A DNA stretch of 64,000 nt from positions 4,194 to 68,193 of the forward strand of contig JAZDHZ010000036.1 in assembly GCA_043805415.1 (NCBI GenBank). Reading direction: 5' to 3'. Made by a program: the position numbers and the translations under genes. This DNA is from Candidatus Omnitrophota bacterium (GTDB lineage: Bacteria > Omnitrophota > Gorgyraeia > B26-G9). How positions within the stretch are numbered: the stretch's first letter is position 1; the number at the start of each line of letters is the position of its first letter. The notes under the pieces were generated by a model. The model was not told the DNA's origin. It did not search any database and saw nothing but the letters and a program-made list of their open reading frames with translations. Positions 24,141 through 52,702 of this stretch are shown here, piece by piece.

Positions 24141-24162
24141 TATACGCTGCTTTCTTGAACTC

Positions 24163-24191: not shown

Positions 24192-24251
24192 AGGTACTAT
24201 TTTATTGGGTTTAGTACAAAAAGTCGCTAAATTTAACAATTATAGGAAAAA

Positions 24252-30152: not shown

Positions 30153-30710
30153 TCACTGAAACACACCAAAAGCATTCTGCGTATCACTCCAGGAAGTAAT
30201 TGAGTAACTAGTTGCCGCAGAAGCACCTGCTGAGCCTAGCTGAGCATCATAATGAATTCCGCCCTGACCGCTGATTGTAACTGTGTTTCCGACAAAAGCC
30301 CCATACAATGCTCCCTGTCCGGTAAGTTTTAAATCTGAGTCCGGAGCATATATAGCGCCATAAAAATCTCCTTGTCCGGCTAATTTAATATCTTGCGCTA
30401 CGCCAGTGCCGTACATAATCAGATTTGACGGAACGCTGGTTGCGTTAGTTATTCCTTGGCCAGTTAAACTCACATCTCCGTCAAAATAAATATTAACCGG
30501 CCCAGCGCTGGCCGGATCAATATAAACCTGAGCTTGACCAGATATACTTATCGCGGTGGTTCCGGTTAAATAAAGATTTATCGGTCCAGTAAGGGTAACC
30601 GTCTTCTGTCCCGAGAGATTAATCATCCAGTATTGATAATCTCCTGGAGACAAAGTGGTTGTGCTGGAAATACTGCCTAAATTAGTTAATGTAGTTAAAC
30701 TTGTAGGCAC
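30153..30710 (-). CDS. Gly/Gln-rich repeat protein. It is probably the C-terminal part of the PilX-like protein, separated from it by an apparent frameshift.
   Basis: GQG/YGA repeats (LTGQGALYGAF, LAGQGDFYGAIYAP). With a +1 shift near 30712-30741 the upstream PilX-like ORF reads through (..YYS-IQIEEDKPTLTTVSVPTSL..). Confidence 0.45.
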   Translation of the reverse strand: MPTSLTTLTNLGSISSTTTLSPGDYQYWMINLSGQKTVTLTGPINLYLTGTTAISISGQAQVYIDPASAGPVNIYFDGDVSLTGQGITNATSVPSNLIMYGTGVAQDIKLAGQGDFYGAIYAPDSDLKLTGQGALYGAFVGNTVTISGQGGIHYDAQLGSAGASAATSYSITSWSDTQNAFGVFQ

Positions 30711-30741
30711 AGAAACAGTTGTTAAAGTCGGTTTATCTTCT

Positions 30742-31365
30742 TCAATCTGAATAATACGTTGCCGCCGGAGCAGTTTCTCCTACCGGAATATTGATATCCC
30801 CATCAACATAAGCCTGGCCTGAACCGGAAAATTCCGTATTACTGCCCACATCTCCATCTGAACCCACATTACTGCCTCCATACGCGCCTAAAGATGAATC
30901 ATAGCTGTCAGTAGCGCCTTGACCGCTAATCGACATTGTTCCTTCCGCAAAAGCTGCGTACTTAAATAGAGAATTGTTTGCTTTTGCTGCAATTACCTCA
31001 AGCTTACGAGTTAATGGATTTGTTGCTGCTCTGTTTGGGAAAAATCCAGTTGATTCAATCCGGACATTAGAATTCACGTAATCATAAACAGTTATATCAT
31101 AATCACCCGCAGCACCCAAAGATCCTTGCAGGATTTTATTATTTCCCTGAGTTGTCCATCCTGTCCAAGCTCCTGCTCCATTATTAAGCTCATACAAGGC
31201 TGTAGCCAGCCCTGATTCAGCCATCCAAAACGCGCGGGTCTGATCAACAAAACCTTCTGTTCTTTTATTTGCTACTGCTCCTCGCAAAAGCAAAGCACTG
31301 GCCAGAATAGTCAAGATAATAATAATAACCAGATTTAAAGCCATAGCAAAGCCTTTTTTATTCAT
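30742..31365 (-). CDS. PilX-like pilus assembly protein (PilX_N N-terminal domain).
   Basis: MNKKGFAMALNLVIIIILTILASALLLRG matches the PilX N-terminal pattern. Confidence 0.65.
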   Translation of the reverse strand: MNKKGFAMALNLVIIIILTILASALLLRGAVANKRTEGFVDQTRAFWMAESGLATALYELNNGAGAWTGWTTQGNNKILQGSLGAAGDYDITVYDYVNSNVRIESTGFFPNRAATNPLTRKLEVIAAKANNSLFKYAAFAEGTMSISGQGATDSYDSSLGAYGGSNVGSDGDVGSNTEFSGSGQAYVDGDINIPVGETAPAATYYSD

Positions 31366-31376
31366 TATAAACCTCT

Positions 31377-33570: not shown

Positions 33571-33695
33571 ATTTTTGTTTTTCTGCTTTTCCTAATCGCT
33601 AAACGTTTATCCTGAGCAAAGTCGAAGGGCTATTCGCTAATCGCCGCTTTTTTTGTTTTTCCTAACCGCTAAACGCTAATCGCTATCCGCTGCTT
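33571..33695. repeat. Composite intergenic repeat element, copy C. It has two core copies (...TTTTTCTGCTTTTCCTAATCGCTAAACG... and ...TTTTTGTTTTTCCTAACCGCTAAACGCTAATCGCTATCCGCTG) and abuts the giant gene stop.
   Basis: Read directly from the sequence. Matches copies A and B. Confidence 0.8.
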
Positions 33696-36600
33696 TATTT
33701 TACCGCTTTAAATGAATATATTTTACCAGAATCTGGACCAACAAGGACATAAGTCTCTTGCACATCCCAGGTCTCAGTATTATATATCAAATGCAACGCT
33801 GCTCCGCCTTTAATCGCAGCGCCTGTATCATAAGGCCATCCTGGGACAATCTGGCCTGTAGCTACATCAACCGCATAGAATTTACCATTATCCGCGCCAA
33901 AATAAACTATGCCGTTCTCAACCAGCGGCCAGGAATCAATTGGCGAACCAACATCAACTGGAAAATTCGGTTTCATACTGCCATCCGTAATACTGACCGC
34001 GTACAGTTTTCCATCCTGCGATCCAAAAAATACATAACGGGATCCTGTATCAAACCAGGGAGCTGAGTAAACCGCGCCGCCTACAGAGATTGGATTAACT
34101 GTCCAGCCTGTATCAGCACTGTCTGAGCTTAAATTTGAGGTATTAACCGCATAAAATTTCCCATTTGTTGTACCAAATAGCATTAATCGCCTTGAACTGC
34201 CGACACTTGGGTTTTGCAAAGTAATAGTTGGTGCTGTTTTAATTGCCCCTTCTGAGCCAAACCCTGTATCAAATGTGCGTGCGCCTGTTCCATCAACTGC
34301 TTTAAAACCATAAACTTTTCCGTCACTGGCCCCAAAATATATTTCATCATAATCTAAAGTTGGAACATAAATCATGGCTGGGGATGATTCAATAGCACCG
34401 CCGACAGCAGCCGGAGCTCCCCAGGCATCTGTTCCATCGGCAGAATCAATACAATAGATATTATTCGCGGTTGTGCCAAAATATACCCCAGAAACATAGT
34501 CATACAAGACTGTGGTTGTAAGCGACTCACCCATTACTCTATTCCATCTAAGCGTATTATCTGCCCATAATCCATATACTGTCTTGCCTACAGTTCCAAA
34601 ATAAACAATATCTTTTAAATCCGCGCCGTCAATATCAGTTGATGGATATGGCAAGCCTCTAATCTTTCCGGAAGTTGTGAAACTAGTCTCAAGTTCATGT
34701 GTATCGCCATTTAAGATATATAGATTATTATCATCTGATCCAATATATATTTTATTTTCCATTCCCCAATAAGCTATCGGAATACTGCGTATTGGGCCAA
34801 GCACATTCGCCCCTGTAGGATATATCCAATCCGCGTTTAGGGTGCTAATACTCACATTGGCCGATACATTAGCTATTGAACTTACATCTGCTTGAGAGCT
34901 TGAATCCACACCCGATGCATTTCCCGTAAAATTAACTGTTCCGGAAGTTATCCCTGCTTTATATGTCCAAATAAAATTTTGCTGCGTCTGGGGAGCTATA
35001 TTCGCAGTTAATGGTATCGGGCCAGTTAAAAGATTTGCCGCAGCACTAGTCCCCCCAATAGTTATGATAGATGGAGATACTCCCTGTGCTGTAGCACCTC
35101 CTGTGTTTGCAGTATTAGTTACAGTCATTGTCACTGTTATTGTCGCGTTAGTAAGCAAAGACGATGGAGTTGCCGCAATTGAAGATGTCAAAGCTGCTGA
35201 TTCAGTTAAAATTCTGATATCGCTTGATGCTGAAGCAGCAGACGCTGTTTCGGTTGCATTAGCATGCCCGGTAAAGTTAACAATGCCTAATGTGCTTCCG
35301 GCATTATAAGTCCAGCTGAATTGCTGTGTTGCTCCTGATCCAAGAGTTGCAATACTTGCTGGAATCGGCCCTGTGGCATAAAGCGCGTCTGAAGAACTGC
35401 CTCCCACAGCCAAGCTGGATGGCGTAATATTGTTTAATATACTGCCGCCTGTATTTTGCACATTCATCGTTACTGTGATTGTATCAGATGGTTGAACTGA
35501 ACTCGGAGTTGCACTTATTGATGAAGTCATGGCATATGAAGGCGGTGATTGCACAGTTACTGAATCTTGAGCTTGAGTTGCCGTTAAAACAGCATTAGAA
35601 TTCGCATCTATTCCCTGCGCGATTCCTGCTGCAAAATTCGCAACTCCTGCCCCTGATCCATGACCAATAAATATAAATTCTTTTGATCTGCCGCCTTTTA
35701 TTGTTGCTGTTGTAGGACTTGGCCCAGAATCAATAATTGGATTAGCCGAACCAGAGGGAATAAGTACTGGAGCTACATTTAATGCATCCGCTTGCCCTGG
35801 ATTAGAAACTGTTACTTTAATAGTTATATTTTCATTTGTATTTACTGTTGCCGGCGCAGCATAGACATTTAAAGTTAAACTCGCTTTTTGTACAATCGTA
35901 ATATCATTTGAAGAAACTGTGGTTGATTTAATGATTCCATCTGTATCCGTACCCTGGGCATATCCAGCAAAACTAACTGTGCCGGCACTTGCGCCAGCGG
36001 TATATGTCCATTGAAATTGTTTTTGACCTGCTGGATCAATATTTTGCGCGCTGGGATTTGAACTTGTTGTAGCTGTTGCGCCTCCTGTTGAGCTGACAGT
36101 TAATACACTGGGGTCAACATCATTAACTAAGGAACTTCCAGTATTGTTTACTGTCATAGTAACCGTAAACTGTTGATCTGTGCTGACAATATTTTTTGAA
36201 CTTGCAACTGCAGCTGTTAGATTTCCCCTGCCGATTATGTAAGGTCCTGCATGAGTAACTGTACTTGACCAATTACCCACATTATCCACACTGCGAATAT
36301 GCCCATAATAACTTCCCGAGGCCAGATCATTTGCCGTATATGTGCCTTGACCTTGATCAACATTAATATATTGCGGAGGAATGGTTGTGGGACTTGTATT
36401 CACGATAATACTGTACCCGGCAACCCCTGATTGAGTATCCGTAACATCAGACCAGGTAAATTGGATATCATTATTAATTGATGGAACTCCCTGAGTATGG
36501 GATGAGGATGTAAGCGTTGTTACAAAATTAGGAGCAGTACTATCCAGGACTACACTAAAAGGCACATTAGCCGTGTTTCCAGCATTATCATAAACAACTG

Positions 36601-39600
36601 CATTAACATTATTATAATTTGCTCCAGATGAGGATATCTCATATGTATATAAATACTGATAAGCACCTGCATCTTCAGTTGTGTCAACACCTCCAGTACT
36701 TGTTGTTGTCGGAAATAAAGCTTCTTTTAATCCTGATGCTGCATCGCTTGCGCTAACACAAACCCGGAAAGCCGAATAAGCTAATCCGGAATAATAAATC
36801 AGATTACCGCTTACACTTAAGTAATCTCCGCCGGCATATTCAGTTATTTGGTAAATAGACGTTGCTGTGGGCGCTTGAGTATCTATGTAAAAAGGTCCAA
36901 GATGCGCGGCAGTTAAAGCCCAGTTACCTACATTATCTACACTTCTGATATGCACATAATGCGTATTGCCATTTGCTAGAACAGGGCTTGTCGCTGTATT
37001 CTGTGTTTGTTCTATATCTTTTATATTATCCGGAATTGTTGTTGGATTATTATCCCATAGAACAGAATAACCATCCAAGCCGCTGTCCGCGTCAACAGCC
37101 GGAGTCCAGCTTACAGCCACAGTATTATCTTTTGACTGAGGGTCACTCCACATACTAATCGCATTATTATGCGAGTTTGTAGCCAGGCCGGAAATATTGC
37201 CCGGAACCACAGAATCAACAATATAACTTCCCGTTGAATTCAAAACACTGTCTTCAGCTGTTGGTGAAAATTCAAAACTAATCCCATTTACCGGAACACT
37301 TAGGTCTACTGTTGCCCCATTAGTAACAGTCCCGGCTAAATCCACGGTTGCATACAATTCTTCTGTTCCGGCAATTGGAATATTCACATTAAGATCAGCA
37401 AACGTTGCTGTTCCACTTGAAAAAGTTTTTATTCCAATTTGTGAATCAACCCCTAATTCAAACTCACCTGAATTATTACTATCATAATAAAGTTTTACCG
37501 CGCTTATTTGCGCATCGAAAATTGTTCCGCTATTATTAATCGTAAAGCTCTTAACCGTATCTAAAGCCAAGACATTATTATTCGTAAGCGTAAGGTCTAA
37601 GACTAATTTATTACTTTCTCCCTGTTTTATATATCCGCTGCTAAGCGCGTTAGCAGTAATATCTACAGTAAGCGAAGAAGCCTGGACAACAAGCACTCCC
37701 TCTGTATTATCATCGGTTATTAAGCTGTCAGTGACATCAATATTCAGAGTCTGCGCTGTATTGTCTGTCAGATCAAAAGAAGCGACTCCATTGTCCTGCT
37801 GCGCGAATGTATACATTGCCGTATCCACACTTGCTCCGCCTTCTGTAAAATACCCTGCTCCGCTATGCAGCAACCAGCTGATATTATTCACATCCCCATC
37901 AGTATCTAAAATAATTGTTCCGACATAATCTATTTTTATATTGCCATATTGATCTTTTGCTGTTACATTTATCTCTTCTCCCACAGATTGAACCGCGGTT
38001 CCATCATGACTTATTGTAAAATAATTTAAGACATTTGGATTTACGGTTAAGCCCCCTTCTGTATCATCATCAAATTTACCATCACCGCTAACCGAAATAT
38101 TTAAAATTTCCGCGGTGGTATCATTAAGCGAAAGGCTAACTACCCCATTGTCTGCTGGAGCATAAGTATAAGTCGCGGTATCAGCATTTGCTCCGCCATC
38201 AATAAATGTGCCATTGCCAAAAACATTTGCCCAGGTAATTGTTGTCACGGTCCCGGTTGTATCCAAAGTTATAGTTCCGCTATAATCATTTTGGGTATTA
38301 TTATAATAATCCTTTGCGTAAATACTGATGTTTTCCGCGATACCGGCTGTAGCGCTGGAGTCATGAACAATCTTAAAATGATCTAAACCGCTGGGAGAAA
38401 CTACCATATTTCCTTCTGTATCATCATCAAATTTACCTGAACCGGAAATATCTATGTCTACAGATTCAGCAAATGTATCAGTAAACATCAGCACAACCAA
38501 ACCATTATCTCCGGCAACAAAATTATATGTTGCTGTATCAACCGATGCTCCTCCGTCATTTAAAACGCCTAATCCAGAATCCAAAGCCCAGGCAATAGAA
38601 GTCGCAGAGCCATTAGTATCTATGGTTATGGTCCCTATATAGTTAGTTTTAATGTTCGCGTATATATCATATGCTTTTACTGTAATCAATTCTCCAATAC
38701 CAGCATATGCCGCGGCATCATGACTGATGATAAATTTATCTAAAGCTCCAGCACCGACAACCAAAATACCTTCAGTATCATCATCTGCTTTGCCATCACC
38801 GTTTGCCGAGATATTCAAATTTTCTACTGTAGTATCCGTAATACTTAAAATAACTATCCCATTATCCGCTAAACTAAATGTATAATCAGCAGTATCAACC
38901 AATGCTCCATTATCATTAAATACTCCATGCCCGGAAACATTTGACCAGGTGATTGTTGTGGCTGTACCATTTGTATCTACAGTGATTGTTCCGGTATAAT
39001 TTGTAATTGTGTTGGCATAGGCGTCTTTGGCTGTGATTGTTATATTTTCGGCGACTCCGGCCTGGGCGCTGGCATCATGGTTAATCACAAACTTATTCAG
39101 CGTATTAGGAATAACAGATATATTCCCTTCCGTATTATCATCTGTCTTTCCATCCCCTGACACGGAGATATTAAATGATTCGGTTTTAGTATCCGCTATT
39201 CCCAAAGTAACTGTACCATTATCCGCGGCCGCGAATGTATAAGTCGCGGTATCAACTGTCGGCCCGCCATCATTAAATATGCCATTACCCGAAATATTTG
39301 ACCAGGCAATTGTTCCAGCAGTGCCGTTTGTATCTAAAGTTATCGTACCTGTATAATTTGCAACCGGATTATTATTCGCGTCATGGGCAATAATCGTAAT
39401 ATTCTCAACTACTCCGGCTATTGCATTAGCGTCATGGTTTATTGTAAAGTGATTTAATCCCAAAGGATTAAAAATTAAATTCCCTTCGCTATTATCATCG
39501 GTTTTCCCGCTGCCGCTGGCACTGATATTAATTGTCTGTGTCTGGGTATTAGTAATTGTCAGAACAACAATACCATTATCACTGGAGTTAAAAGTGTAGG

Positions 39601-39868
39601 TTGATGTATCAGCATTTGCCCCATTATCATTAAATATCCCGGCTCCTGATTGCAAAGCCCAGGTTATTTCCGTAGCAGTTCCATTTGTATCCAGCGTCAT
39701 GGTTCCGGTATAATTAGTAACTGTTACATCACTCGCGTCTTTAGCGATTACCGTGATCTGCTCCGGCACACCGGCAATCGCATTGCCGTCATGAATGATT
39801 TTAAAATGATGAAATCCCGCGGCAACTACTTCCAAAACCCCCTTCATAATCATCATCTGTTTTTGCAT
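33695..39868 (-). CDS. C-terminal ~2057 aa of the giant adhesin, as currently framed after the homopolymer frameshift. It has ~8 Ig-like 119-aa repeats, FN3-like modules, DUF11-like repeats and a C-terminal PQQ-type beta-propeller.
   Basis: The repeat signature HF.I.HDG.A.AG...YTG.ITLDTNGT...DTATYTF...DNG.V.L...GDGKTDD continues from the upstream ORF. The C-terminal 600 aa contain YFG..DG.LY/FYAV propeller-like repeats. The apparent start MQKQMMIMKGVLEVV lies mid-repeat. Confidence 0.8.
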   Translation of the reverse strand: MQKQMMIMKGVLEVVAAGFHHFKIIHDGNAIAGVPEQITVIAKDASDVTVTNYTGTMTLDTNGTATEITWALQSGAGIFNDNGANADTSTYTFNSSDNGIVVLTITNTQTQTINISASGSGKTDDNSEGNLIFNPLGLNHFTINHDANAIAGVVENITIIAHDANNNPVANYTGTITLDTNGTAGTIAWSNISGNGIFNDGGPTVDTATYTFAAADNGTVTLGIADTKTESFNISVSGDGKTDDNTEGNISVIPNTLNKFVINHDASAQAGVAENITITAKDAYANTITNYTGTITVDTNGTATTITWSNVSGHGVFNDNGALVDTADYTFSLADNGIVILSITDTTVENLNISANGDGKADDDTEGILVVGAGALDKFIISHDAAAYAGIGELITVKAYDIYANIKTNYIGTITIDTNGSATSIAWALDSGLGVLNDGGASVDTATYNFVAGDNGLVVLMFTDTFAESVDIDISGSGKFDDDTEGNMVVSPSGLDHFKIVHDSSATAGIAENISIYAKDYYNNTQNDYSGTITLDTTGTVTTITWANVFGNGTFIDGGANADTATYTYAPADNGVVSLSLNDTTAEILNISVSGDGKFDDDTEGGLTVNPNVLNYFTISHDGTAVQSVGEEINVTAKDQYGNIKIDYVGTIILDTDGDVNNISWLLHSGAGYFTEGGASVDTAMYTFAQQDNGVASFDLTDNTAQTLNIDVTDSLITDDNTEGVLVVQASSLTVDITANALSSGYIKQGESNKLVLDLTLTNNNVLALDTVKSFTINNSGTIFDAQISAVKLYYDSNNSGEFELGVDSQIGIKTFSSGTATFADLNVNIPIAGTEELYATVDLAGTVTNGATVDLSVPVNGISFEFSPTAEDSVLNSTGSYIVDSVVPGNISGLATNSHNNAISMWSDPQSKDNTVAVSWTPAVDADSGLDGYSVLWDNNPTTIPDNIKDIEQTQNTATSPVLANGNTHYVHIRSVDNVGNWALTAAHLGPFYIDTQAPTATSIYQITEYAGGDYLSVSGNLIYYSGLAYSAFRVCVSASDAASGLKEALFPTTTSTGGVDTTEDAGAYQYLYTYEISSSGANYNNVNAVVYDNAGNTANVPFSVVLDSTAPNFVTTLTSSSHTQGVPSINNDIQFTWSDVTDTQSGVAGYSIIVNTSPTTIPPQYINVDQGQGTYTANDLASGSYYGHIRSVDNVGNWSSTVTHAGPYIIGRGNLTAAVASSKNIVSTDQQFTVTMTVNNTGSSLVNDVDPSVLTVSSTGGATATTSSNPSAQNIDPAGQKQFQWTYTAGASAGTVSFAGYAQGTDTDGIIKSTTVSSNDITIVQKASLTLNVYAAPATVNTNENITIKVTVSNPGQADALNVAPVLIPSGSANPIIDSGPSPTTATIKGGRSKEFIFIGHGSGAGVANFAAGIAQGIDANSNAVLTATQAQDSVTVQSPPSYAMTSSISATPSSVQPSDTITVTMNVQNTGGSILNNITPSSLAVGGSSSDALYATGPIPASIATLGSGATQQFSWTYNAGSTLGIVNFTGHANATETASAASASSDIRILTESAALTSSIAATPSSLLTNATITVTMTVTNTANTGGATAQGVSPSIITIGGTSAAANLLTGPIPLTANIAPQTQQNFIWTYKAGITSGTVNFTGNASGVDSSSQADVSSIANVSANVSISTLNADWIYPTGANVLGPIRSIPIAYWGMENKIYIGSDDNNLYILNGDTHELETSFTTSGKIRGLPYPSTDIDGADLKDIVYFGTVGKTVYGLWADNTLRWNRVMGESLTTTVLYDYVSGVYFGTTANNIYCIDSADGTDAWGAPAAVGGAIESSPAMIYVPTLDYDEIYFGASDGKVYGFKAVDGTGARTFDTGFGSEGAIKTAPTITLQNPSVGSSRRLMLFGTTNGKFYAVNTSNLSSDSADTGWTVNPISVGGAVYSAPWFDTGSRYVFFGSQDGKLYAVSITDGSMKPNFPVDVGSPIDSWPLVENGIVYFGADNGKFYAVDVATGQIVPGWPYDTGAAIKGGAALHLIYNTETWDVQETYVLVGPDSGKIYSFKAVK

Positions 39869-45800: not shown

Positions 45801-48800
45801 ACCAATCCCTGAGATCGGAATTGCCACATCAAGCAGTTTTCCTGACGCGCAGGCTGAAGACAAATCAATAACCGCGAATAAATATTGGGTTGCTCCAGCA
45901 GGAATATCAATATTAAAACCTGAAAAAATTTTACTTCCTGAGGAAAAACCGCTATTGCCTACCTGGGTATCTACTTCCGGGGTGTAATCCAAAGAATTAT
46001 TTGAATCATAATACAATTTTACTGCTGAAATCTCGCTATCACTGACTGTTCCTACATTATTTAAGGTAACACTGTTTATCGTTAGCGTGCTCCCTTCATT
46101 ATTCGTAACTGAAACATCAAGAATTAAATTGCCTGTTTGGCCTACTGGGATAGTATCAGTTATTACTGGATTTGCTGTTGCTGTTGCCGCTAAGCCTACG
46201 CTAATAAAAGTCGTTGGTGAATTCTGATTATTATATTCTGTGGCAATCCATTCCGGAGAACGCGCGGTAATTGCGTAGCGTACCTCATCCAACTTTCCAA
46301 GCCAGTATTCCGTGCTATAATTTGACCAGCCAATCAAAGCTGATGTTGCTGTAGGAAATGTTGCGCTATGCGTCCCGGTTCCATGCAGAGCTCCGTCAAC
46401 ATAAAAATAAACCATTGTCCCGACTCTGCGGAAATCAACCTTATGCCATTGACCATCATTATGCGTAGCTGTTCCGCTGGAAGTAATCAATCCATTATGA
46501 TAAACCATGGCCACGCTTTGATTATAAAAACCAAATTGCGGCGCGTAATTATTATGGTCATAAATCGTTGAATATGATGCCGGAGAAGAAATATAATTAA
46601 ACCACGCGGAAATAGTATAATCCCCGGGAGTGCCCACTCCCACCGGACTGGTCTTCTTAAAGTAATCATTACTGCCGTCAAAATCTATTCCTTTGCCGAT
46701 TTTAGCGTCAATCAAATCCGTATTAGTCATGGTTCCGTAAGAAGTCATCGCGTTATTATTGGAAGTTGAATCTTTTTCCTGCGGAGCGGTTGCTGAAGGA
46801 TCATTATTTAAATGCCAGACGCCTTTATATGATGTATCCCATACTCCGCTTTTATTCTGCTGATCACTGGCAGCGCTATTTCCATAATACATATAAATCT
46901 TTGTATCTGCTGATGATAAAAGACTGGGAATTTTTACCCAGGCCACAAGGATTCCGGTTGTTTTATCAAAGCTTTCTATTTCATGATCTAATTTTGTATT
47001 TCCGTCACTGGCAGTAAAAACAATATCAAAACCATCGCTGCGGGCATTATCCCGCAATGCTGTATCTGTAATACTTATCAGTACTGGAAAATTAGTCAGA
47101 TTAGCCATGACTTTTGTCCGGTCAATTGTGATCTCTTTATGAAAAGACCAATTTGCTAGTAAAAACTGAGTGATCACTAAATTGCCTTCAGTATTATCAT
47201 CAGTCATGCCGCCGCCGCTTACCGAAATATTTATTGTCTCCGCGGTTGTGTCGGTCAAATCAAGAGTTACCACTCCGAAATCCGCGGAACCATATGTATA
47301 AGTCGCGGTATCAACACTGGCTCCGCCGTCAACAAAAGCTCCTGCGCCTTGATATTTTGACCAGGTAATTGTTGTCGCGGTTCCGGTTGTGTCAACGATT
47401 ATCGACCCGGTATAATCTGTCTTAATATTATTAAAACCATCATACGCGGCTATCGTAATATGCTCCGGCTGTCCGGTAAAAGCATTATTATCATGAGAAA
47501 TAATAAACTTAGTTAATGCCCCGGGAAGCACCTGCAATAATCCTTCACTATTATCATCAGAAGCACTGCCGGACACAGCAATATTTATTGTCTCAGTAAA
47601 AGTATCAGCCATTGCCAAAACAACAACTCCATTATCCGCAGCGCTAAATGTATAGGAACAGGTATCTGCTGATGATCCGTCATCTACAAATGTTCCGCTT
47701 CCGCTAATTTTCGTCCAATTGATTGTACTAGCTGTTCCATCAGTATCAATATATATGGTTCCAGTATAATCAGTTTTGGTCTGGCCTAATGTATCTTTAG
47801 CCGTAATTGTAATATTTTCATTTGTTCCGGCAATAGCCTGACCGTCATGCGCGATCAGGAAATGATGCAGCAATGCTGTATCAATATTCAGCAGGCCCTC
47901 GCTATCATCATCAGTTTTTCCGCTGCCGCTAATATCAATATCAATATTTTCCACCACATTATCCGTTATTGCCAGGGTTACTACCCCATTATCTAAAGCG
48001 GAAAATGTATATACAGCTGTATCCACAGCTGTACCGCCGTCATTAAATGTCCCATTACCGCTTATCTTAGCCCAGCTGATTGCCGCGGGAGTTCCGCTGG
48101 TATCGATTGTTATGGTTCCAGTATAATCTGTCTTTATCTGACCAATACTGTTTAATGCCGTAATCGTAACAGTTTCCGCTACCCCGGCATTACCCGCTCC
48201 ATCATGTACTACCCGAAAAGACCAAATAATCGCAGGCCCAACCACTAAATTTCCCTCAGCATTATTATCAATTTTTCCATCGCCGGAAACTGAAATATTA
48301 ATTGATTCCGCTGTAATATCAGTTATCGCGAAAACCGCGATGCCATTATCTGCTGAATCAAAAGCATATGTCGCGGTATCGACACTTTCTCCATTATCAT
48401 TAAATATGCCATTGCCTGTTGTTTTTGCCCAGCTGATTGCTGATGCCGTGCCATCTGTATCTAAAGTAATTGTTCCGCTATAATCACTTTTTGTATTGCC
48501 ATAGATGTCTTTTGCTGTCACTGTTACTTGCTCGGAAACTCCGGATGATGCCGCATTATCATGGCTTATCAGAAAATAATCAATTGCCGCGGCACTGACC
48601 ACCATTGTCCCTTCAGCATCAGTATCAGTTTTTCCCTCAGCACTGGCATCAATATCAATTGTTTCTTTTTTTGTATCCGTAATACTCAAAACAACAGCAC
48701 CCGCGTCAGAAAGCACAAAACCATATGTCGCGGTATCAACCGAACTGTCTCCGTCAGTAAGCACGCCATTTCCGCTTATTTTCGCCCAGCTGATTGTTGT

Positions 48801-51800
48801 CGCCGTGCCATTAGTATCCACAGTCATTGTCCCGGCATAATCGGTTTTAATATTATTATAAATATCATACGCGATAATCGTAACATTATCCGCTATGCCG
48901 GCTATGGCTTGAGCATCATGGCCAACAATAAAATGATCCAAAGCTGTTGGAGCAATCACTAGATTTCCTTCAATATCATTATCATGAATCCCTGAATCAT
49001 CAACCAAAATATTCAGCGTTTCGGCTTTAGTATCCTTAATAGTAAATATAGCCACACCATTATCATTGGGATTAAAAGTGTATTGAGCTGTATCAACGCT
49101 TGCCCCGCCTTCGCTAAAAGTTCCCAGTCCAGTACTAATCGTCCAGGAAATAGTTGTCGGAGTACCATTTGTATCAAGATTAATCGTGCCCACATAATCA
49201 GTTTTTGTCTGACCATTTGTATCTTTTGCTGTGACTTTTACGTTTTCTTTAACCCCGGCAACTCCGGCATTATCATGTTCAATAACAAACCAGCCTAAAG
49301 CAGTTGTCGAAACAACCAATGTTCCTTCAGCATCATCATCACTATGCGTTCCATCAGTTACCTCAATATCCAGATTATTTGCCGCGCTGCATGTAAGCTG
49401 CAAAACAACAACCCCATTATCCGCGGCATTAAAAGTATAAGTCGCGGAATCATTATCAACCCCATTATCCACAAAACTACCGCTGCCGCTAACCAATGTC
49501 CAGGTAATCTGGTTTGTTTCATTTAAAGTACTCAGTGTTATCTGCCCGGTAAAATCATTAACCGTACAATTGGTAATATTTTTCGCTGTAATTGTTATGG
49601 TTTCCAAAGTATTAATCAATGCTGAGCCATCATGCGTAATCACAAAATGATCTATTGCTGTATCAATAGTAAAAGTATCATTAGTATCATTAAGCATAAT
49701 ATTTCCGGCAATATCCTTTGCCGCGCTTATTGCTATTGCTGCTGTCCCATCTCCTGTAGCACTATTTATCGCGCTGCTATTATAGACAGTATATGTATCA
49801 TTCGGATTATTCGTGGTTGACCAATAACCATTAAGACTCGCGTTCTGCACGCCGGTTGCTCCGCTAGGATCATAAGTTACAATCGGATTTGTGCCGGTAT
49901 CCATTGACTCGGAAAAAAGCAGAGTAAATGTTAACTCTCCTGGCGCCCGGTGACCGCTGGGATCAGGCAAAACTCCCACACTTACTGTGGGCTTTGTTGA
50001 ATCAAATATAAAAGTAAATAATGTCGCCGCCGGTTCACTATAATGTCCCAAAGCATCAAAAGTCCGTACGCGCAAATAGTAAGTAGTACCTTCATTAGCA
50101 TCAGAAATAACATTATACTGCGCTGTAGCTTGTTCCTGAACTGTTGCCGGATTACCTTCAGGATTAATTCCCCAATAAACTGAATAACCGCTGACTCCTT
50201 GTCCATTGCCGTCAGCAGCTCCGGTCCATTCAAAATAAGGAGTTGAGTCAATTCCCTGCGGAGTATTATCCGAAATAAGCGTGTTTTTTGACGCGGAATC
50301 CCAGGCATTACACGGAATAGCAGGATTTAGCGGAGCAGTGGCATCATATTTAAAAGTAAACAAAGTAACCGGAGTGCTATAATGATTCAGATTATCAAAA
50401 GTTCTTATCCTTAAATAATAAGTACCATCTCCCATAGGAGTACTAACTTCATAATTCGCATTGCCCTGTTCTTGGTTAGTTCCAGGTGCTCCATTTATAT
50501 CAGTGCCCCAATAAACAGAATAACCGCTTAGTCCTGAACCACCGCTGTCATTGGCTCCGGTCCATTCAAAATATGGAGTATCATCCGCTTCCTGCCAGGT
50601 ATTATTACTGATCGGATTTATTTTTAAATTTGTTTGCCATGCCGCACAAGGGATATCTGGATTTAAAGGAGCGCCAACATCATAGCGAAAAGTGAACAGA
50701 GTTATCGGTTCACTGTAATTTCCGATAACATCAAAAGTTCTGACTCTTAGAAAATATACACCGTCTTCAGTTCCGGAAGAAACATTATAATTGCTAGCAG
50801 TCTGGCCTTGAGTCAAGCCTGGTTCGCCGTTCGCGTCATTTCCCCAGTAAACAGAATAACCGCTGACTCCTGTGCCGCCCGTATCAGTTGCTCCTGTCCA
50901 TTCAAAATAAGGAGTATTATCTGATTCCTGCCATGTATCATTAGATATTGGGTTTATTTTACTGCTGGAATCCCATGCGCTGCAAGGTAGCGTAGGATTA
51001 ATCGGAATAGTAGTATCAATAAAAAAAGTATCATTCCCATCCGCGACCATGATATTAGCAGCTAAATCCTGCGCGGCACTCACGCTAACTACCGCGGGGC
51101 CGTCTCCGGTTTGGGCGGTTATTGCATTATCATTATATACGGTATAAGTATCATTCATTTCCGAAGTAGTTGACCAGATGCCCCCGGTACACGGCTGAGC
51201 CAGGGTGTCTCCTTGCGGATCATAAGTTACCGACGGAGTAACTCCTGTATTCATTGTCTCGCTGAATACCAGCTTTATTTCCAGAGAACCTGATGAAATC
51301 TCCCCTACCGGGTTGGGCGTAACACTTATATTTACCGTGGGTTTAATATAATCTGCCGGCCTTCTGATCGCGAAAAGTTCCACATCCTTGGAATATACCG
51401 TTCCTCCACTGGCACGGTGCCATGCCTTTACTTCATGCTGGTTGGCATCAAAGTTAACAATAGCCATATAATTGGCATTCATATAATCCGTCAAATCTTT
51501 ATAGTCTCTGTATTCAGTTGCCTGTATAACATCTGTTGCCGGATCAGCCGCGTCATGCGAAAATTCGTGGTATTGTAGGTAAGAAAGACTGCTTGTCCGT
51601 CCAAATGCCTGGCCGATAATCAGATACTCTCCAGGAGTATCTGCCGGGATTGTTGCCGTAGCCAAAAGCTGGTTTGATGTTGAGGCTGTAGAAGCTTGTG
51701 AGCTTGCGTACTGTTGATCCAAAAAGAAATCATATATTCCGGACAACCGCATAGCAAATATTCTCTGTTTACGGATAGTGCCACTAGTCGCGTCATCCAT

Positions 51801-52640
51801 CCTCGACTCAAGGCCTATGCTATGCGAGCCCGCGCTAAGATTTACCACTGAAGTTATAAATACCGGCTGCCAGTCAGTAGTATCCTGCGCTTCCAGCATA
51901 TAGTGCCGATTTGCCGCATCCGCGTAAGGCTTATACGTACTGTTATCAATATTTATCCTTATTTGCGAAGAGTCTGAGACATTATTAACATCCAGTTCAC
52001 AATACCCCATAATCAGATACTGTCCGGCAGAAGCGGGACTGATACTTAAAGAAGCTCCCAGATTTTCCCAGACCATGCTGGAAGTCATCGCATAACTTGC
52101 CGCGCCGGCATCAGTATCATAAGCATATTGATAACCGGTTTGCGAATTAATCGGGATCGCGATAAGCCGGGAACGCTTTACGCGAGTCGTGGTACCATCA
52201 TCATTGCGGTGGTCAAAATCAACGTACTGCGAACCACTTAAATTTTGCGCCACATAAAATCCGGAAACAGTTGTATAATTAGTTATGTTTACTGTTTCAA
52301 TTTTAACCGCGTCATTAGCTGAATATCCCATCAACTGAATACTGTTATTCAATTGAACCTGCAATTCCACACTATCAGCAGCAGTAGCTCCTTGCCACTC
52401 CAATTCCCACATGATCAGCCAATCAGTATTCGGCTCGGCAGTCCATCCCAAAGTATTATGTTCCGTCCAGGTTGTTGTGCTTGTACTGGTTTGTTCATTG
52501 AGGTTTTCACTGCTATACCATACATCATAAGCTCTAGCAGAGGGAGAAAATGCGCCTATCAGCAAAAAACAAAACAAAATTAAAAAGAGAATTCTGTGGG
52601 ATTTAGCAATCTTAAGTTTTTTAAAAAAATAATTTCTCAT
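39801..52640 (-). CDS. N-terminal ~4280 aa of the giant secreted adhesin. It has a signal peptide, two ~200-aa N-terminal beta-rich domains, three FN3-like modules, ~21 Ig-like 119-aa repeats, and an embedded DUF2341+LamG (MshQ-like) module.
   Basis: The start was set at the second Met (MRNYFFKK...), preceded by GGGGAAGGG. Signal peptide RILFLILFCFLLIGAFSPSARA. The repeats are seen directly. The DUF2341-like segment is WSFHKEITIDRTKV...NFPVLISI...IYMYYGN and the LamG-like segment is ...ISAWFNY...QWHKVDFRRVGTMVYFYVDG. The frame ends at a TAA 37 nt after a C5 tract. Confidence 0.85.
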   Translation of the reverse strand: MRNYFFKKLKIAKSHRILFLILFCFLLIGAFSPSARAYDVWYSSENLNEQTSTSTTTWTEHNTLGWTAEPNTDWLIMWELEWQGATAADSVELQVQLNNSIQLMGYSANDAVKIETVNITNYTTVSGFYVAQNLSGSQYVDFDHRNDDGTTTRVKRSRLIAIPINSQTGYQYAYDTDAGAASYAMTSSMVWENLGASLSISPASAGQYLIMGYCELDVNNVSDSSQIRINIDNSTYKPYADAANRHYMLEAQDTTDWQPVFITSVVNLSAGSHSIGLESRMDDATSGTIRKQRIFAMRLSGIYDFFLDQQYASSQASTASTSNQLLATATIPADTPGEYLIIGQAFGRTSSLSYLQYHEFSHDAADPATDVIQATEYRDYKDLTDYMNANYMAIVNFDANQHEVKAWHRASGGTVYSKDVELFAIRRPADYIKPTVNISVTPNPVGEISSGSLEIKLVFSETMNTGVTPSVTYDPQGDTLAQPCTGGIWSTTSEMNDTYTVYNDNAITAQTGDGPAVVSVSAAQDLAANIMVADGNDTFFIDTTIPINPTLPCSAWDSSSKINPISNDTWQESDNTPYFEWTGATDTGGTGVSGYSVYWGNDANGEPGLTQGQTASNYNVSSGTEDGVYFLRVRTFDVIGNYSEPITLFTFRYDVGAPLNPDIPCAAWQTNLKINPISNNTWQEADDTPYFEWTGANDSGGSGLSGYSVYWGTDINGAPGTNQEQGNANYEVSTPMGDGTYYLRIRTFDNLNHYSTPVTLFTFKYDATAPLNPAIPCNAWDSASKNTLISDNTPQGIDSTPYFEWTGAADGNGQGVSGYSVYWGINPEGNPATVQEQATAQYNVISDANEGTTYYLRVRTFDALGHYSEPAATLFTFIFDSTKPTVSVGVLPDPSGHRAPGELTFTLLFSESMDTGTNPIVTYDPSGATGVQNASLNGYWSTTNNPNDTYTVYNSSAINSATGDGTAAIAISAAKDIAGNIMLNDTNDTFTIDTAIDHFVITHDGSALINTLETITITAKNITNCTVNDFTGQITLSTLNETNQITWTLVSGSGSFVDNGVDNDSATYTFNAADNGVVVLQLTCSAANNLDIEVTDGTHSDDDAEGTLVVSTTALGWFVIEHDNAGVAGVKENVKVTAKDTNGQTKTDYVGTINLDTNGTPTTISWTISTGLGTFSEGGASVDTAQYTFNPNDNGVAIFTIKDTKAETLNILVDDSGIHDNDIEGNLVIAPTALDHFIVGHDAQAIAGIADNVTIIAYDIYNNIKTDYAGTMTVDTNGTATTISWAKISGNGVLTDGDSSVDTATYGFVLSDAGAVVLSITDTKKETIDIDASAEGKTDTDAEGTMVVSAAAIDYFLISHDNAASSGVSEQVTVTAKDIYGNTKSDYSGTITLDTDGTASAISWAKTTGNGIFNDNGESVDTATYAFDSADNGIAVFAITDITAESINISVSGDGKIDNNAEGNLVVGPAIIWSFRVVHDGAGNAGVAETVTITALNSIGQIKTDYTGTITIDTSGTPAAISWAKISGNGTFNDGGTAVDTAVYTFSALDNGVVTLAITDNVVENIDIDISGSGKTDDDSEGLLNIDTALLHHFLIAHDGQAIAGTNENITITAKDTLGQTKTDYTGTIYIDTDGTASTINWTKISGSGTFVDDGSSADTCSYTFSAADNGVVVLAMADTFTETINIAVSGSASDDNSEGLLQVLPGALTKFIISHDNNAFTGQPEHITIAAYDGFNNIKTDYTGSIIVDTTGTATTITWSKYQGAGAFVDGGASVDTATYTYGSADFGVVTLDLTDTTAETINISVSGGGMTDDNTEGNLVITQFLLANWSFHKEITIDRTKVMANLTNFPVLISITDTALRDNARSDGFDIVFTASDGNTKLDHEIESFDKTTGILVAWVKIPSLLSSADTKIYMYYGNSAASDQQNKSGVWDTSYKGVWHLNNDPSATAPQEKDSTSNNNAMTSYGTMTNTDLIDAKIGKGIDFDGSNDYFKKTSPVGVGTPGDYTISAWFNYISSPASYSTIYDHNNYAPQFGFYNQSVAMVYHNGLITSSGTATHNDGQWHKVDFRRVGTMVYFYVDGALHGTGTHSATFPTATSALIGWSNYSTEYWLGKLDEVRYAITARSPEWIATEYNNQNSPTTFISVGLAATATANPVITDTIPVGQTGNLILDVSVTNNEGSTLTINSVTLNNVGTVSDSEISAVKLYYDSNNSLDYTPEVDTQVGNSGFSSGSKIFSGFNIDIPAGATQYLFAVIDLSSACASGKLLDVAIPISGIGFSNGKKLGSAVLNSSGTRQTYIGLDHFLISHDGAAIAGLDENITIIAKDAYGNTKTDYTGTITVDTNGTPESITWSKYAGSGVFNDGGVSLDTAIYTFTQSDAGVVVLNISDEIAEIINISASGDGKSDDNTETDLTVSAGLVNHFIVSHDGSGIAGAGEIISVTVKDSFGNTVNNYSGQITLGTNGSVDDINWTLDSGSGVFFNNGAGAGTAIYTFDPSDTGLARFEIVDNKAETLNIIAVGDGKYDDDSEGDLIIAPGELNHFVISHEGQAIAGNAEAISITALDGFGNIKNNYTGTINLDTTGTATKITWALNTGNGIFTDNGASLDTATYTFNALDNGTAVFNLTDTKTETINISVSAGSVTDDNTEGNLVITSGDIDHFVINHDGIATTDVSEQVMITAYDAYENIKDDYTGVTTLDTTGTVTTISWTLISGEGVFNDAGSSADTATYTFVPADAGIVILSIIDYTAESVNISVSGDGKNDSNNEGDLVFVSSGIDHFLIVHDGNAIAGIGESISIYAKNANGDTLTSYGGQITIDTTGTSGTIAWALQSGNGTFNDSGADADTCSYMYDDSDLGVVVLTITDSSEESVNISVSGEGKSDNNTEGNLVFNPAGLHHFTITHDGNAVAGIADTVTIAAKDANNNTLTAYTGQIDLDTTGTATTISWAKITGNGSFSDGGALADTATYSYVASDNGTCVLSITDTIVESLNISVSGAGKSDDDKEGTLTVGPGAIDYFSINHDGSAVAGIADNITIVAYDSYGNIKTNYTGQISMDTNGTAGTITWAKATGLGTFVDGGASVDTATYTFLAADNGQCILKITDTTAESLNISVTGDGKTDNDSEGNLIVGPTSIDHFVVNHDGNAEAGVAETVTIKAYDSYLNIKDNYTGTITLDTNGTATTITWLKITGNGVFTDNGALVDTATYTYADSDDGIVVLSVSDTKKENIDIDVFGGGKTDNDSEGNLIVGPTSIDHFVIIHDGNAEAGVAENVTVRAYDLYSNIKDNYTGTITLDTNGTATTITWSKITGNGTLADGGALVDTATYTYADSDDGIVVLAITDTKKEVINLAVFGDGKNDTNAEGDIIIGPSLIDHFTIFHDGSAVVNLGESITIYAKDVWENIKDNYTGQITLDTNGTPTAIDWTLTAGVGVFQDGGASLDTALYTFSDADDGMVVLSLNDSTAETINILVSGDGKSDDNTESNLVINPVGGLNTGYLSPTANSGNFTSPANAYANDASRATSYNGQSQQYYNYGVNIPAGSTILGIAVQLDAYASSTTGLTQGLVELSWDGGTSFTTTGKITPDMITSEVTYVLGGPTDVWGRTWTVDNFTNANFRVRINASTPSTTIYLYLDWIPARIYYELPPDAIANAVSTTPIAAGASNVLSLDVTVTNTASQARVINSLVINNTGTLSDTEISSLKLYYDSNNSNDYTTGVDNQVGSGVFNSGTKTFTGLNISVPASGSEDIFVVCALAQTVNDADTLDIQIPVNGISFVYGVQIEDTVLNSAGIIPVSLALDHFVIQHDQSAITGIPEQITLTARDIYGNIKTSYSGTITLDTTGTATAITWAKVTGNGIFTEGGASVDTATYAFSASDNGTAVFSLVDNKAESINISASGDAKTDDNTEGNLVIASGGIDHFLITHDAAAIAGIAENVTVTAKDAFNNTVSNYTGQINLDTNGTAAGISWQLLTGFGIFTDGGQGVDTATYTFNASDNSTATFALTSTTAESLNIAVTGDSKSDDNTEGNLVVSAAVLDHFLLAHDGAAQAGILDTITITAKDQYGNTKKNYTEQITLDTNGTVSTITWAKISGNGTFVDGGLSVDTATYVYSLADDGVVVLSLQDTTLEQLNISVSGSGKTDDDTEGMLNVGPGIIDHFSIVHDGFALQNQPESIIIKAYDAYNNIKTDYTGLITVDTDGTANAINWALSTGNGVFNDGGASVDTATYTFAGADNGQVTLLLTDTVSEIINIAVSGDAKTDDDYEGGFGSSCRGISSF

Positions 52641-52702
52641 TTTACCCTTCCCCACCAACATATTTAAATACTATTTATAATTGATATAAAACACTAAACT
52701 AA

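What the first reader, a model, noticed from the sequence alone, without database searches (positions are those of the whole stretch)
33695..52661. Two giant ORFs are one ~6340-aa gene interrupted at a C5 homopolymer
The 4286-aa ORF ends ...NIAVSGDAKTDDDYEG-GFGSSCRGISSF*. The next ORF begins ...MIMKGVLEVVAAGFHHFKIIHDG, which is mid-way through the same 119-aa repeat unit (EG.L.V......HF.I.HDG). Removing one C from the C5 tract at 39838-39842 joins the two frames exactly (DDDYEGVLEVVAAGFHHFKIIHD). This could be a sequencing or assembly indel in a homopolymer. It could also be a genuine slipped-strand ON/OFF switch, which would truncate the adhesin before its C-terminal beta-propeller in the OFF state.
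Basis: seen in the sequence. Interest (0 to 1): 0.8.

Follow-up and report, generated by a model that had tools for sequence, protein, structure and literature searches.

The report
Large surface-protein gene split by one base
The two huge adjacent ORFs are one 6,321-residue surface-protein gene of an uncultured Omnitrophota bacterium, cut in two by a single extra G that every known relative lacks; this is an ordinary consensus error or a very fresh truncating mutation, not a designed on/off switch.

Summary
ORFs 39801..52661(-) and 33695..39868(-) overlap by 68 nt around a G5 run (C5 on +, 39838-39842). Deleting one G gives one 6,321-aa ORF (not ~6,340) and keeps the 119-aa repeat spacing exact.

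- **Relatives are intact.** Five Omnitrophota MAG orthologues carry exactly one base fewer at this site and read straight through. Two are full-length single genes (6,130 and 5,433 aa).
- **The break is very young.** From residue ~460 the repaired protein aligns to the 6,130-aa orthologue with only two 1-residue gaps. dN/dS is the same before (0.11) and after (0.09) the break.
- **No sign of a programmed mechanism.** The run is shorter than known phase-variable tracts and is not conserved. It has no frameshift-stimulating features. The downstream half lacks a signal peptide and a well-spaced ribosome-binding site.
- **A second split gene.** A DUF7305 pilin-like gene 9 kb away is broken by a net 8-nt deletion.

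I cannot separate a consensus error (~0.5) from a genuine recent null allele (~0.38) without reads. A reversible switch is unlikely (~0.05). GenBank lists the halves as two proteins (MFH1062908.1, MFH1062907.1). Interest is low.

The parts
33695..52661 (-). The whole interrupted gene. With one G removed it is a single ORF of 6,321 codons.
   Evidence: From residue ~460 to the end it aligns to the 6,130-aa orthologue with only two 1-residue gaps.
39801..52661 (-). Upstream half. The ORF is 4,286 aa. GenBank lists MFH1062908.1, 4,279 aa, starting at 52640, named 'DUF2341 domain-containing protein'. It holds 4,274 native residues plus a 12-residue out-of-frame tail.
33695..39868 (-). Downstream half. 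The ORF is 2,057 aa. GenBank lists MFH1062907.1, 2,053 aa, starting at 39856, named 'PQQ-binding-like beta-propeller repeat protein'. Its ATG codons come from the out-of-frame reading of GAT GAT GAT TAT G.
   Evidence: GGAG lies 12 nt upstream of the annotated ATG; most of the other gene starts in the window have a purine-rich stretch about 4-9 nt upstream.
39838..39842 (-). The G5 run (C5 on +) that holds the extra base. The repaired state is GAA GGG GTT TTG (G4).
39801..39839 (-). Out-of-frame tail of the upstream ORF (GFGSSCRGISSF) plus its TAA stop.
52530..52640 (-). Sec-type signal peptide (MRNYFFKKLKIAKSHRILFLILFCFLLIGAFSPSARA|YD).
   Evidence: Read from the translation. No predictor was run, so this is an inference.
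51312..52529 (-). N-terminal beta-rich domain of about 400 aa with no Pfam match. It is hypervariable against the closest orthologue: 32% identity over residues 1-300 and 58% over 301-600, with many indels in the first ~460 columns.
47157..49673 (-). Repeat block 1: 7 Ig-like units of 119 aa.
46290..47036 (-). DUF2341 and LamG-like region.
   Evidence: PF10102 matches at E 1.2e-11. PF02210 is weak.
42180..45749 (-). Repeat block 2: 10 Ig-like units of 119 aa.
37691..41261 (-). Repeat block 3: 10 Ig-like units of 119 aa. The frameshift lies at the boundary between its units 4 and 5.
   Evidence: In the AF2 model of the repaired two-unit stretch (pLDDT 91.8), the junction falls in the loop just before strand 118-122. 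The best Foldseek matches are invasin/intimin-type Ig domains.
34709..35968 (-). CARDB-like repeats before the propeller.
   Evidence: PF07705 matches at E 3.1e-07.
33707..34555 (-). C-terminal PQQ/BamB-like beta-propeller. It is lost from the exported product if the frameshift is real.
30153..31365 (-). Second split gene of the same locus. A DUF7305/pAdhesive_15 pilin-like gene, 405 aa and intact in two relatives, is broken here into 207-aa and 185-aa ORFs by a net 8-nt deletion at about 30748/30749.

Best explanation
This is one gene. It encodes a 6,321-residue secreted or surface protein with this layout:

- a Sec signal peptide;
- a hypervariable N-terminal domain;
- 27 Ig-like 119-aa units in three blocks;
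- DUF2341/LamG and CARDB-like inserts;
- a C-terminal PQQ-like beta-propeller.

It sits in a type II secretion / type IV pilus-like cluster of an uncultured Omnitrophota bacterium. The deposited sequence carries one extra G in what should be a G4 run (GAA GGG GTT).

The insertion is unprogrammed and effectively of zero evolutionary age. I judge its most likely origin to be a base-level error in the MAG consensus (sequencing, assembly or polishing). On that reading the organism makes the full-length protein and the two GenBank proteins are annotation artefacts.

- Shown: the single-gene ancestry, the exact site, and the youth of the lesion.
- Inferred: that it is an error rather than a real mutation.
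For: - All five orthologous loci lack exactly one base at the site and read through it.
- Intact full-length orthologues of 6,130 aa and 5,433 aa exist.
- Over the ~5,860 residues from position ~460 to the end, the alignment has only two 1-residue gaps.
- dN/dS is 0.109 upstream and 0.091 downstream of the break.
- The 2,047 downstream codons contain no stop. If they were evolving neutrally, this bounds the divergence since the lesion at 1.35% or less (95%), against a dS of about 1.0 to the closest relative.
- The site is a homopolymer, the classic place for single-base indel errors.
- There is direct precedent. West-Roberts et al. report that single-base indels in long-read assemblies, and local errors in Illumina-only assemblies, split Omnitrophota giant genes into adjacent ORFs. 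Curation rejoined them (bioRxiv 10.1101/2023.11.21.568195).
- A second frame-breaking lesion lies 9 kb away in another conserved gene, and both of its halves are also still intact. Two zero-age lesions in 64 kb fit a modest assembly error rate more easily than two independent, near-simultaneous majority null alleles.
- A smaller homologue in an evidently error-prone 'contig_' assembly is split in the same way, next to a split purD.
Against: - The window shows no general homopolymer problem. The other 26 G/C runs of 5 or more, and 66 A/T runs of 7-9, cause no detectable frameshift: 17 genes compared with the orthologous MAG are intact and colinear, and the Pfam domains of the other ORFs are complete.
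- The second lesion is a net 8-nt deletion outside any homopolymer, which is not a typical base-calling error.
- The 200 nt either side of the junction share at most a 20-nt exact match with anything else in the window, so repeat-induced misassembly is unlikely.
- In the two closest relatives' MAGs, none of the compared genes is split.
- No reads or second assembly of this strain could be found.
Confidence: 0.5

Rival explanations
1. A genuine, very recent truncating mutation that is fixed or in the majority in the sampled population. Polymerase slippage turned G4 into G5. The cell would export a 4,286-aa protein lacking the last 6 Ig units, the CARDB-like repeats and the beta-propeller. Any product of the downstream ORF would lack a signal peptide and be useless. 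Together with the broken DUF7305 pilin-like gene, the attachment module of this secretion/pilus locus would be decaying or selected against.
For: - No systematic homopolymer errors appear elsewhere in the window.
- The second lesion is an 8-nt deletion that does not look like a sequencing error.
- Both lesions hit predicted surface or adhesive components of one locus.
- A 19-kb gene is a large mutational target.
- Real frameshift-split giant adhesin genes are known, for example ebhA/ebhB in some Staphylococcus aureus strains (from my own knowledge, not checked here).
- The locus shows real rearrangement in this lineage: a ~6.3-kb insertion and only remnants of a 127-aa gene.
Against: - The gene has been under strong purifying selection throughout (dN/dS about 0.1 on both sides).
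- There is no further stop or indel in 19 kb, so the lesion would have to be extremely young.
- Two independent null alleles would both have to reach majority in that short time.
- None of the five orthologues is broken.
Confidence: 0.38
2. A reversible slipped-strand (contingency) ON/OFF switch. The population toggles between G4 (full length) and G5 (truncated).
For: - The lesion is in a G run inside a surface-protein gene, the usual place for such switches.
- The downstream frame is perfectly preserved, as an OFF state would require.
Against: - The tract is only 4/5 G. Working cut-offs are 7 or more G/C, with 8 or more shown experimentally (PMC6321876).
- The tract is absent or interrupted in four of five orthologues.
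- G/C runs are not enriched at repeat boundaries in this gene.
- Longer C6 and C7 runs elsewhere in the window are in frame.
Confidence: 0.05
3. The frameshift is read through during expression, by programmed +1 ribosomal frameshifting at GGG-G or by transcriptional slippage. The full-length protein would then be made from the G5 template.
For: - A P-site tRNA-Gly could re-pair perfectly from GGG to the +1 GGG.
- AGGGGG resembles the Shine-Dalgarno-like stimulator of prfB (resemblance recalled from my own knowledge).
Against: - All orthologues are in frame at this site, so there is no conserved recoding site.
- The following 0-frame codons GGT, TTT and GGA are not rare, at 15.8, 30.0 and 32.4 per thousand, and there is no stop.
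- No significant RNA structure follows the site (z = -0.96).
- The SD-like element overlaps the slip codon instead of lying 3 nt upstream.
- G5 is far shorter than known transcriptional slippage tracts (my own knowledge).
Confidence: 0.02
4. True gene fission: two functional proteins, as currently annotated in GenBank.
For: - Both ORFs are long and intact.
- An ATG at 39856 has a GGAG upstream.
Against: - The cut falls at a repeat boundary with no new N-terminal features.
- The downstream product has no signal peptide, although it consists of extracellular-type domains.
- The GGAG is 12 nt from the ATG, whereas most of the other gene starts in the window have a purine-rich stretch about 4-9 nt upstream.
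- The ATGs are a by-product of the Asp-rich linker read out of frame.
- No orthologue has an independent downstream gene.
Confidence: 0.03

Closest known systems
Omnitrophota giant genes split by assembly indels and rejoined by curation (West-Roberts et al. 2023, bioRxiv 10.1101/2023.11.21.568195)
   Same: - Same phylum.
- A very long repeat-rich surface-protein gene next to a type II secretion / pilus-like locus.
- Adjacent same-strand ORFs produced by a single-base or local lesion.
   Different: - This gene is 19 kb and 6,321 aa, below the 25-kb figure mentioned in that paper's introduction.
- The domain content differs: Ig-like 119-aa units, DUF2341/LamG and a PQQ propeller.
- The error could not be verified against reads here.
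Frameshift-split giant adhesin genes in cultured bacteria (e.g. S. aureus ebhA/ebhB; from my own knowledge, not checked here)
   Same: A very large repeat adhesin gene cut into two ORFs by a small frameshift in some strains and intact in others.
   Different: - Those cases are confirmed in isolates.
- They come from a different phylum, with a different repeat type and anchoring.
Poly-G/C contingency loci of Campylobacter and Neisseria (PhasomeIt, PMC6321876)
   Same: A G/C homopolymer inside a surface-protein ORF, where a change of length changes the frame.
   Different: - The tract here is 4/5 nt against 7 or more (mostly 9-10) in those loci.
- It is not conserved in relatives.
- There is no evidence of length heterogeneity.
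Invasin/intimin-type bacterial Ig-like (Big) repeat adhesins (InvE 5n40, invasin 1cwv, FdeC 4e9l, intimin 6tpl/6tqd)
   Same: Tandem all-beta Ig-like domains forming a presumed extended stalk. Foldseek probability is 1.00 and the best E-value is 4.8e-10.
   Different: - No Pfam Big_1 or invasin sequence match.
- No inverse-autotransporter beta-barrel.
- The unit is 119 aa with an HF.I.HDG motif.
- TM-scores are low (0.25-0.36) for the two-domain model.

Membership tests
Single gene disrupted by a frameshift (pseudogene or assembly artefact) | The two ORFs match contiguous parts of one intact orthologous gene. | tested here: met
   From residue ~460 the alignment to the 6,130-aa orthologue has only two 1-residue gaps. 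The five orthologous loci are open across the site. Products of 6,130 aa and 5,433 aa are called as single genes.
Single gene disrupted by a frameshift (pseudogene or assembly artefact) | An indel whose length is not a multiple of 3 lies exactly at the junction. | tested here: met
   A 900-nt blastn alignment to L001 contains a single 1-nt gap, at the G run. The other four loci also lack one base within a few nt of the run.
Single gene disrupted by a frameshift (pseudogene or assembly artefact) | Whether the lesion is in the DNA of the organism or only in the consensus. | not testable with these tools
   There are no reads. No second assembly of this strain was found.
SSR-mediated phase-variable (contingency) locus | A hypermutable tract of sufficient length: poly-G/C of 7 or more. 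| tested here: not met
   G5 in the OFF state and G4 in the ON state. Cut-offs are taken from PMC6321876.
SSR-mediated phase-variable (contingency) locus | The tract is retained, with varying length, among related genomes. | tested here: not met
   Orthologues read GGTG, GGGG, GGAA, GGGGAA and GGAA.
SSR-mediated phase-variable (contingency) locus | Length heterogeneity within a population. | not testable with these tools
   This needs read pile-ups.
Programmed +1 ribosomal frameshift (prfB/antizyme type) | The shift site and frame change are conserved in orthologues. | tested here: not met
   All orthologues are in frame.
Programmed +1 ribosomal frameshift (prfB/antizyme type) | A slow-to-decode or stop codon in the A site, or a stimulatory element at the right spacing. 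| tested here: not met
   The next codons are common. No RNA structure follows (z = -0.96). The SD-like AGGGGG overlaps the slip codon.
Invasin/intimin-type Big-domain adhesins | Ig-like beta-sandwich repeat fold. | tested here: met
   AF2 model with pLDDT 91.8. Foldseek matches to InvE, invasin, FdeC and intimin.
Invasin/intimin-type Big-domain adhesins | Sequence membership (Pfam Big_1 / Invasin_D3) and an N-terminal outer-membrane beta-barrel anchor. | tested here: not met
   No such Pfam hits, even at E <= 1. The N-terminus is a signal peptide followed by an unassigned beta-rich domain.
Omnitrophota giant proteins associated with T2SS-like loci (West-Roberts et al.) | Encoded next to gspD/E/F-like and pilin-like genes. 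| tested here: met
   T2SSE, T2SSF, pseudopilins, T2SSJ/K, PilM/N/O, GspC and the secretin all lie within 25 kb.
Omnitrophota giant proteins associated with T2SS-like loci (West-Roberts et al.) | Gene size in the 'giant' range (25 kb or more, as stated in that paper's introduction). | tested here: not met
   The repaired gene is 18,966 nt.

The most novel reading that the evidence does not exclude
The G4/G5 run is a genuine, reversible slipped-strand switch. It would turn off the C-terminal third of a large adhesin (six Ig units, CARDB-like repeats, beta-propeller) in a putatively predatory or epibiotic Omnitrophota population. It might act together with loss of the neighbouring DUF7305 pilin-like protein. 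That would be phase variation from an unusually short tract, in a phylum where none has been described.
Probability: 0.04. Interest if true: 0.6.

Novelty: already known. Interest (0 to 1): 0.22.

Why it matters
The practical value is for annotation. GenBank lists two proteins, MFH1062908.1 ('DUF2341 domain-containing protein', 4,279 aa) and MFH1062907.1 ('PQQ-binding-like beta-propeller repeat protein', 2,053 aa). They should be read as one 6,321-aa product or as one pseudogene.

Surveys of protein length, and of giant or very long proteins in Omnitrophota, will undercount such genes when a single base splits them.

If both lesions in this locus turned out to be real, the MAG would represent a natural variant that has lost two predicted attachment components of a secretion/pilus module. 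That would be of moderate interest for the proposed predatory or epibiotic lifestyle of the phylum. It is not a new kind of mechanism.

Tried and rejected
1. **Exact-protein look-ups.** Both ORFs, the neighbouring 377-aa gene and three GenBank proteins of the contig (P0024, P0025, P0027) are not in the gene-position index. No alternative assembly of this strain could be fetched.
2. **Exact DNA pattern across the junction, allowing G4-G6, in JGI metagenome contigs.** No match.
3. **Word-indexed protein search with the repaired junction region.** Nothing above 66% identity. The same search with the N-terminal 900 aa gave no hit at all. That tool evidently misses the known giant orthologues.
4. 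**Programmed frameshifting.** No rare codon, no structure and no conservation. Rejected.
5. **Repeat-driven misassembly at the junction.** The longest exact match shared with the rest of the window is 20 nt. The longest internal repeat (60 nt) lies 3 kb away. Rejected as the cause.
6. **Overlapping ORFs 24461..25225 / 24963..27032 (+) as another frameshift.** This is an artefact of longest-ORF listing. The ParA-like and PilM/N genes are both complete and colinear with the orthologue, with the PilM/N start at about 25218.
7. **ORF pair 20877..21446 / 21412..22038 (-).** There is no orthologue to compare and no evidence of a split. Left open.
8. **Linking the MAG to the West-Roberts dataset.** The paper gives no accession numbers.
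Full report
**1. Observation**

The six-frame ORF list shows 39801..52661(-) at 4,286 aa and 33695..39868(-) at 2,057 aa. They are on the same strand, in different frames, and overlap by 68 nt.

On the coding strand the sequence reads GAT TAT GAA GGG GGT TTT GGA ... TTT TAA. The G5 run is at 39842-39838, which is C5 on the + strand. The upstream ORF therefore ends ...DDDYEG followed by 12 aberrant residues, GFGSSCRGISSF*. The downstream ORF begins MQKQMMIMKGVLEVVAAGFHHFKIIHDG.

Deleting one G yields a single ORF of 6,321 codons reading ...DDDYEGVLEVVAAGFHHFKIIHDG.

The repaired protein contains 27 copies of a unit marked by HF.I.HDG, in three blocks of 7, 10 and 10. Of the 24 within-block spacings, 23 are exactly 119 residues and one is 118. 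The spacing 4166 -> 4285 -> 4404 is kept at 119 across the repaired junction.

**2. Source and public annotation**

Exact-sequence look-ups place the window on an 82,834-nt contig of an NCBI MAG, 'Candidatus Omnitrophota bacterium', locus tags V1747_.

The two halves are deposited as separate proteins, not as a pseudogene:

| Accession | Length | Start | Name |
|---|---|---|---|
| MFH1062908.1 | 4,279 aa | 52640 | DUF2341 domain-containing protein |
| MFH1062907.1 | 2,053 aa | 39856 | PQQ-binding-like beta-propeller repeat protein |

**3. Relatives**

A scan of one genome per species, using the unique C-terminal 1,058 aa, found five orthologous loci. All are Omnitrophota or PVC-group MAGs at 64-86% identity.

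- In each locus, one open frame of at least 4,467 codons runs across the equivalent of the junction to the same stop.
- A 900-nt blastn alignment to the closest locus (L001) has a single 1-nt gap, in the G run. The other four loci also lack one base within a few nt of the run.
- The orthologues read GGTG-TT, GGGG-TT, GGAATT, GGGGAATT and GGAA-TT, and all encode EG[VIE]LE[VI]VAAGFHHFKI.
- The unusual AAGFHHFKI motif shows that this is the same repeat unit in every genome.
- A JGI contig (L006, the same contig as L001) holds the complete orthologue. It is one ORF of 6,130 aa followed by the same 377-aa propeller gene. JGI and NCBI both call it as one 6,130-residue product.
- A second relative has a 5,433-residue product.

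Every protein in 1.84 billion representatives was scored with HMMER against the C-terminal 1,174 aa. Apart from the window's own product, the only end-to-end match lies at residues 4800-5973 of the 6,130-aa protein.

**4. Age of the lesion**

The repaired protein aligns to the 6,130-aa orthologue from residue ~460 to the end with only two 1-residue gaps, at 75-95% identity.

Nei-Gojobori dN/dS is 0.109 for residues 460-4273 and 0.091 for 4274-6321, with dS about 1.0. The part after the break has therefore been under the same purifying selection as the part before it.

In the downstream frame, 3.6% of possible substitutions would create a stop. The absence of any stop in 6,144 nt bounds neutral divergence since the lesion at 1.35% or less (95%). 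The lesion is either not in the organism at all or is extremely recent.

**5. Is it a programmed device?**

*Phase variation.* The tract would be G4 (ON) and G5 (OFF).
- The window has 27 G/C runs of 5 or more, including one C7 and four C6. The other 26 cause no detectable frameshift.
- The tract is not conserved.
- G runs at the EG|x repeat boundary are incidental. Another boundary has an in-frame G5.

*+1 ribosomal frameshifting.*
- Orthologues are in frame.
- The following codons are common: GGT 15.8, TTT 30.0 and GGA 32.4 per thousand.
- The 111 nt around the site fold no better than shuffles (z = -0.96).

*Gene fission.*
- The downstream product lacks a signal peptide.
- Its ATGs arise from the Asp-rich linker read out of frame.
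- The annotated ATG has GGAG 12 nt upstream. Most of the other gene starts in the window have a purine-rich stretch about 4-9 nt upstream.

None of these readings is supported.

**6. Error or real mutation?**

This cannot be settled without reads. No second assembly of the strain exists in the collections.

*For error:*
- The site is a homopolymer.
- The lesion is of zero apparent age.
- There is direct precedent. In Omnitrophota, single-base indels in long-read assemblies and local errors in Illumina-only assemblies split giant genes into adjacent ORFs, which curation rejoined (bioRxiv 10.1101/2023.11.21.568195).
- A smaller homologue on a 'contig_'-named assembly with a split purD is broken in the same way.

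*Against error:*
- The window shows no general indel problem. Seventeen genes compared with the orthologous MAG are intact and colinear.
- The Pfam domains of the other ORFs are complete.
- 66 A/T runs of 7-9 nt cause no detectable frameshift.
- The junction's surroundings share at most 20 nt of exact sequence with the rest of the window, so repeat-induced misassembly is unlikely.

*A second lesion.* The 405-aa DUF7305/pAdhesive_15 pilin-like gene is intact in two relatives. In the window it maps in two frames: residues 1-205 at 31368..30748 and residues 209-405 at 30746..30156. The cause is a net 8-nt deletion, not a homopolymer event.

Two zero-age lesions in one 64-kb window fit a modest assembly error rate somewhat better than two independent, near-simultaneous majority null alleles. 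However, the type of the second lesion, and the fact that both hit predicted surface components of one locus, pull the other way.

My estimates are: consensus error about 0.50, genuine recent truncating mutation about 0.38, reversible switch about 0.05, recoding about 0.02, and fission about 0.03.

**7. What the gene is**

Domain layout, from N- to C-terminus:
- A Sec-type signal peptide, read from the sequence.
- An N-terminal beta-rich domain of about 400 aa with no Pfam match. It is only 32% identical over residues 1-300 and 58% over 301-600 to the closest orthologue, with many indels in the first ~460 columns, while the rest of the protein is 75-95% identical.
- Three blocks of 119-aa units.
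- DUF2341 and a weak LamG match.
- CARDB-like repeats.
- A C-terminal PQQ/BamB-like beta-propeller.

An AF2 model of the repaired two-unit stretch gives two tandem all-beta domains with mean pLDDT 91.8. The junction (E116-G117|V118) lies in the loop before strand 118-122.

Foldseek against the PDB finds invasin/intimin-family Ig domains best: InvE 5n40 (E 4.8e-10), invasin 1cwv, FdeC 4e9l and intimin. S-layer SbsC domains also match. There is no sequence-level membership in Pfam Big families.

Neighbouring genes encode T2SSE, T2SSF, pseudopilins, T2SSJ/K, PilM/N, PilO, GspC and a secretin. There is also a sigma-54 response regulator with its histidine kinase. This matches the published association of very long Omnitrophota proteins with T2SS-like loci and their proposed role in prey attachment. 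An adhesin function is an inference from fold and context.

**8. Verdict**

Its 'ON/OFF switch' option is unlikely. The feature is an ordinary frameshift-split gene. It matters chiefly as an annotation correction and as a reminder that long genes are undercounted in MAGs.

Noticed in passing
window 30153-31365 (-), lesion at about 30748/30749: A second split gene. A 405-aa DUF7305/pAdhesive_15 pilin-like protein, intact in L001/L013 and L003/L009, is broken into 207-aa and 185-aa ORFs by a net 8-nt deletion (window TATTATTC-AG-ATTGAAG against orthologue TATTATTC-CGGAACAGTC-ATTGAAG). GenBank annotates the 207-aa piece as a hypothetical protein (MFH1062903.1).
   Followed up: yes
window about 51300-52530 (-): The N-terminal ~450 aa of the giant protein (three roughly 130-aa beta-rich modules, no Pfam hit) is only 32% identical over residues 1-300 and 58% over 301-600 to the closest orthologue, with many indels. 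The remaining ~5,860 aa are 75-95% identical with only two 1-residue gaps. This looks like a fast-evolving, possibly target-binding tip domain.
   Followed up: partly
window 17673-24461: Relative to the closest orthologous contig (L013), the window carries about 6.3 kb of extra genes between the T2SSE ATPase and the MerR/ParA genes: znuABC-like ABC transporter, TPR protein, DsbD-like protein and Fur. Only remnants of L013's 127-aa gene survive, at 23959-24239 in two frames.
   Followed up: partly
window 52911-53801 (-) and 3596-4753 (-): Two IS200-like Y1 transposase-domain genes. The first also has a weak helix-turn-helix match (E 5.7e-4, below the Pfam cut-off). It sits immediately upstream of the giant gene, and it does so in the relatives too (L006, L015). 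It is therefore a conserved neighbour rather than a recent insertion.
   Followed up: partly
window 32270-33403 (-): A 377-aa stand-alone PQQ/BamB-like beta-propeller gene directly follows the giant gene in all five orthologous loci. It is a distant paralogue (23% identity, E 7e-14) of the giant protein's own C-terminal propeller. It is possibly a partner or anchor.
   Followed up: partly
L018 10001-16319 (ENA ERZ25039495 contig_26665): A much shorter homologue of the same family (768 aa of repeats plus 1,325 aa with CARDB and propeller) is also split into two frames 35 nt apart. It lies next to the same 378-aa propeller and secretin genes. The contig also has a split purD, which suggests an indel-rich assembly.
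   Followed up: partly
window 42621-43146 (-): Two adjacent 119-aa units (fused residues about 3138-3375) are near-identical, with exact repeats of up to 60 nt at 42730/43087. This indicates a recent unit duplication or gene conversion inside the array. It is the only place in the gene where short-read assembly could be ambiguous.
   Followed up: no
window 20877-21446 / 21412-22038 (-): A 208-aa TPR ORF overlaps a following 189-aa ORF with no Pfam match by 35 nt. No orthologue was available to test whether this is a third split gene.
   Followed up: no
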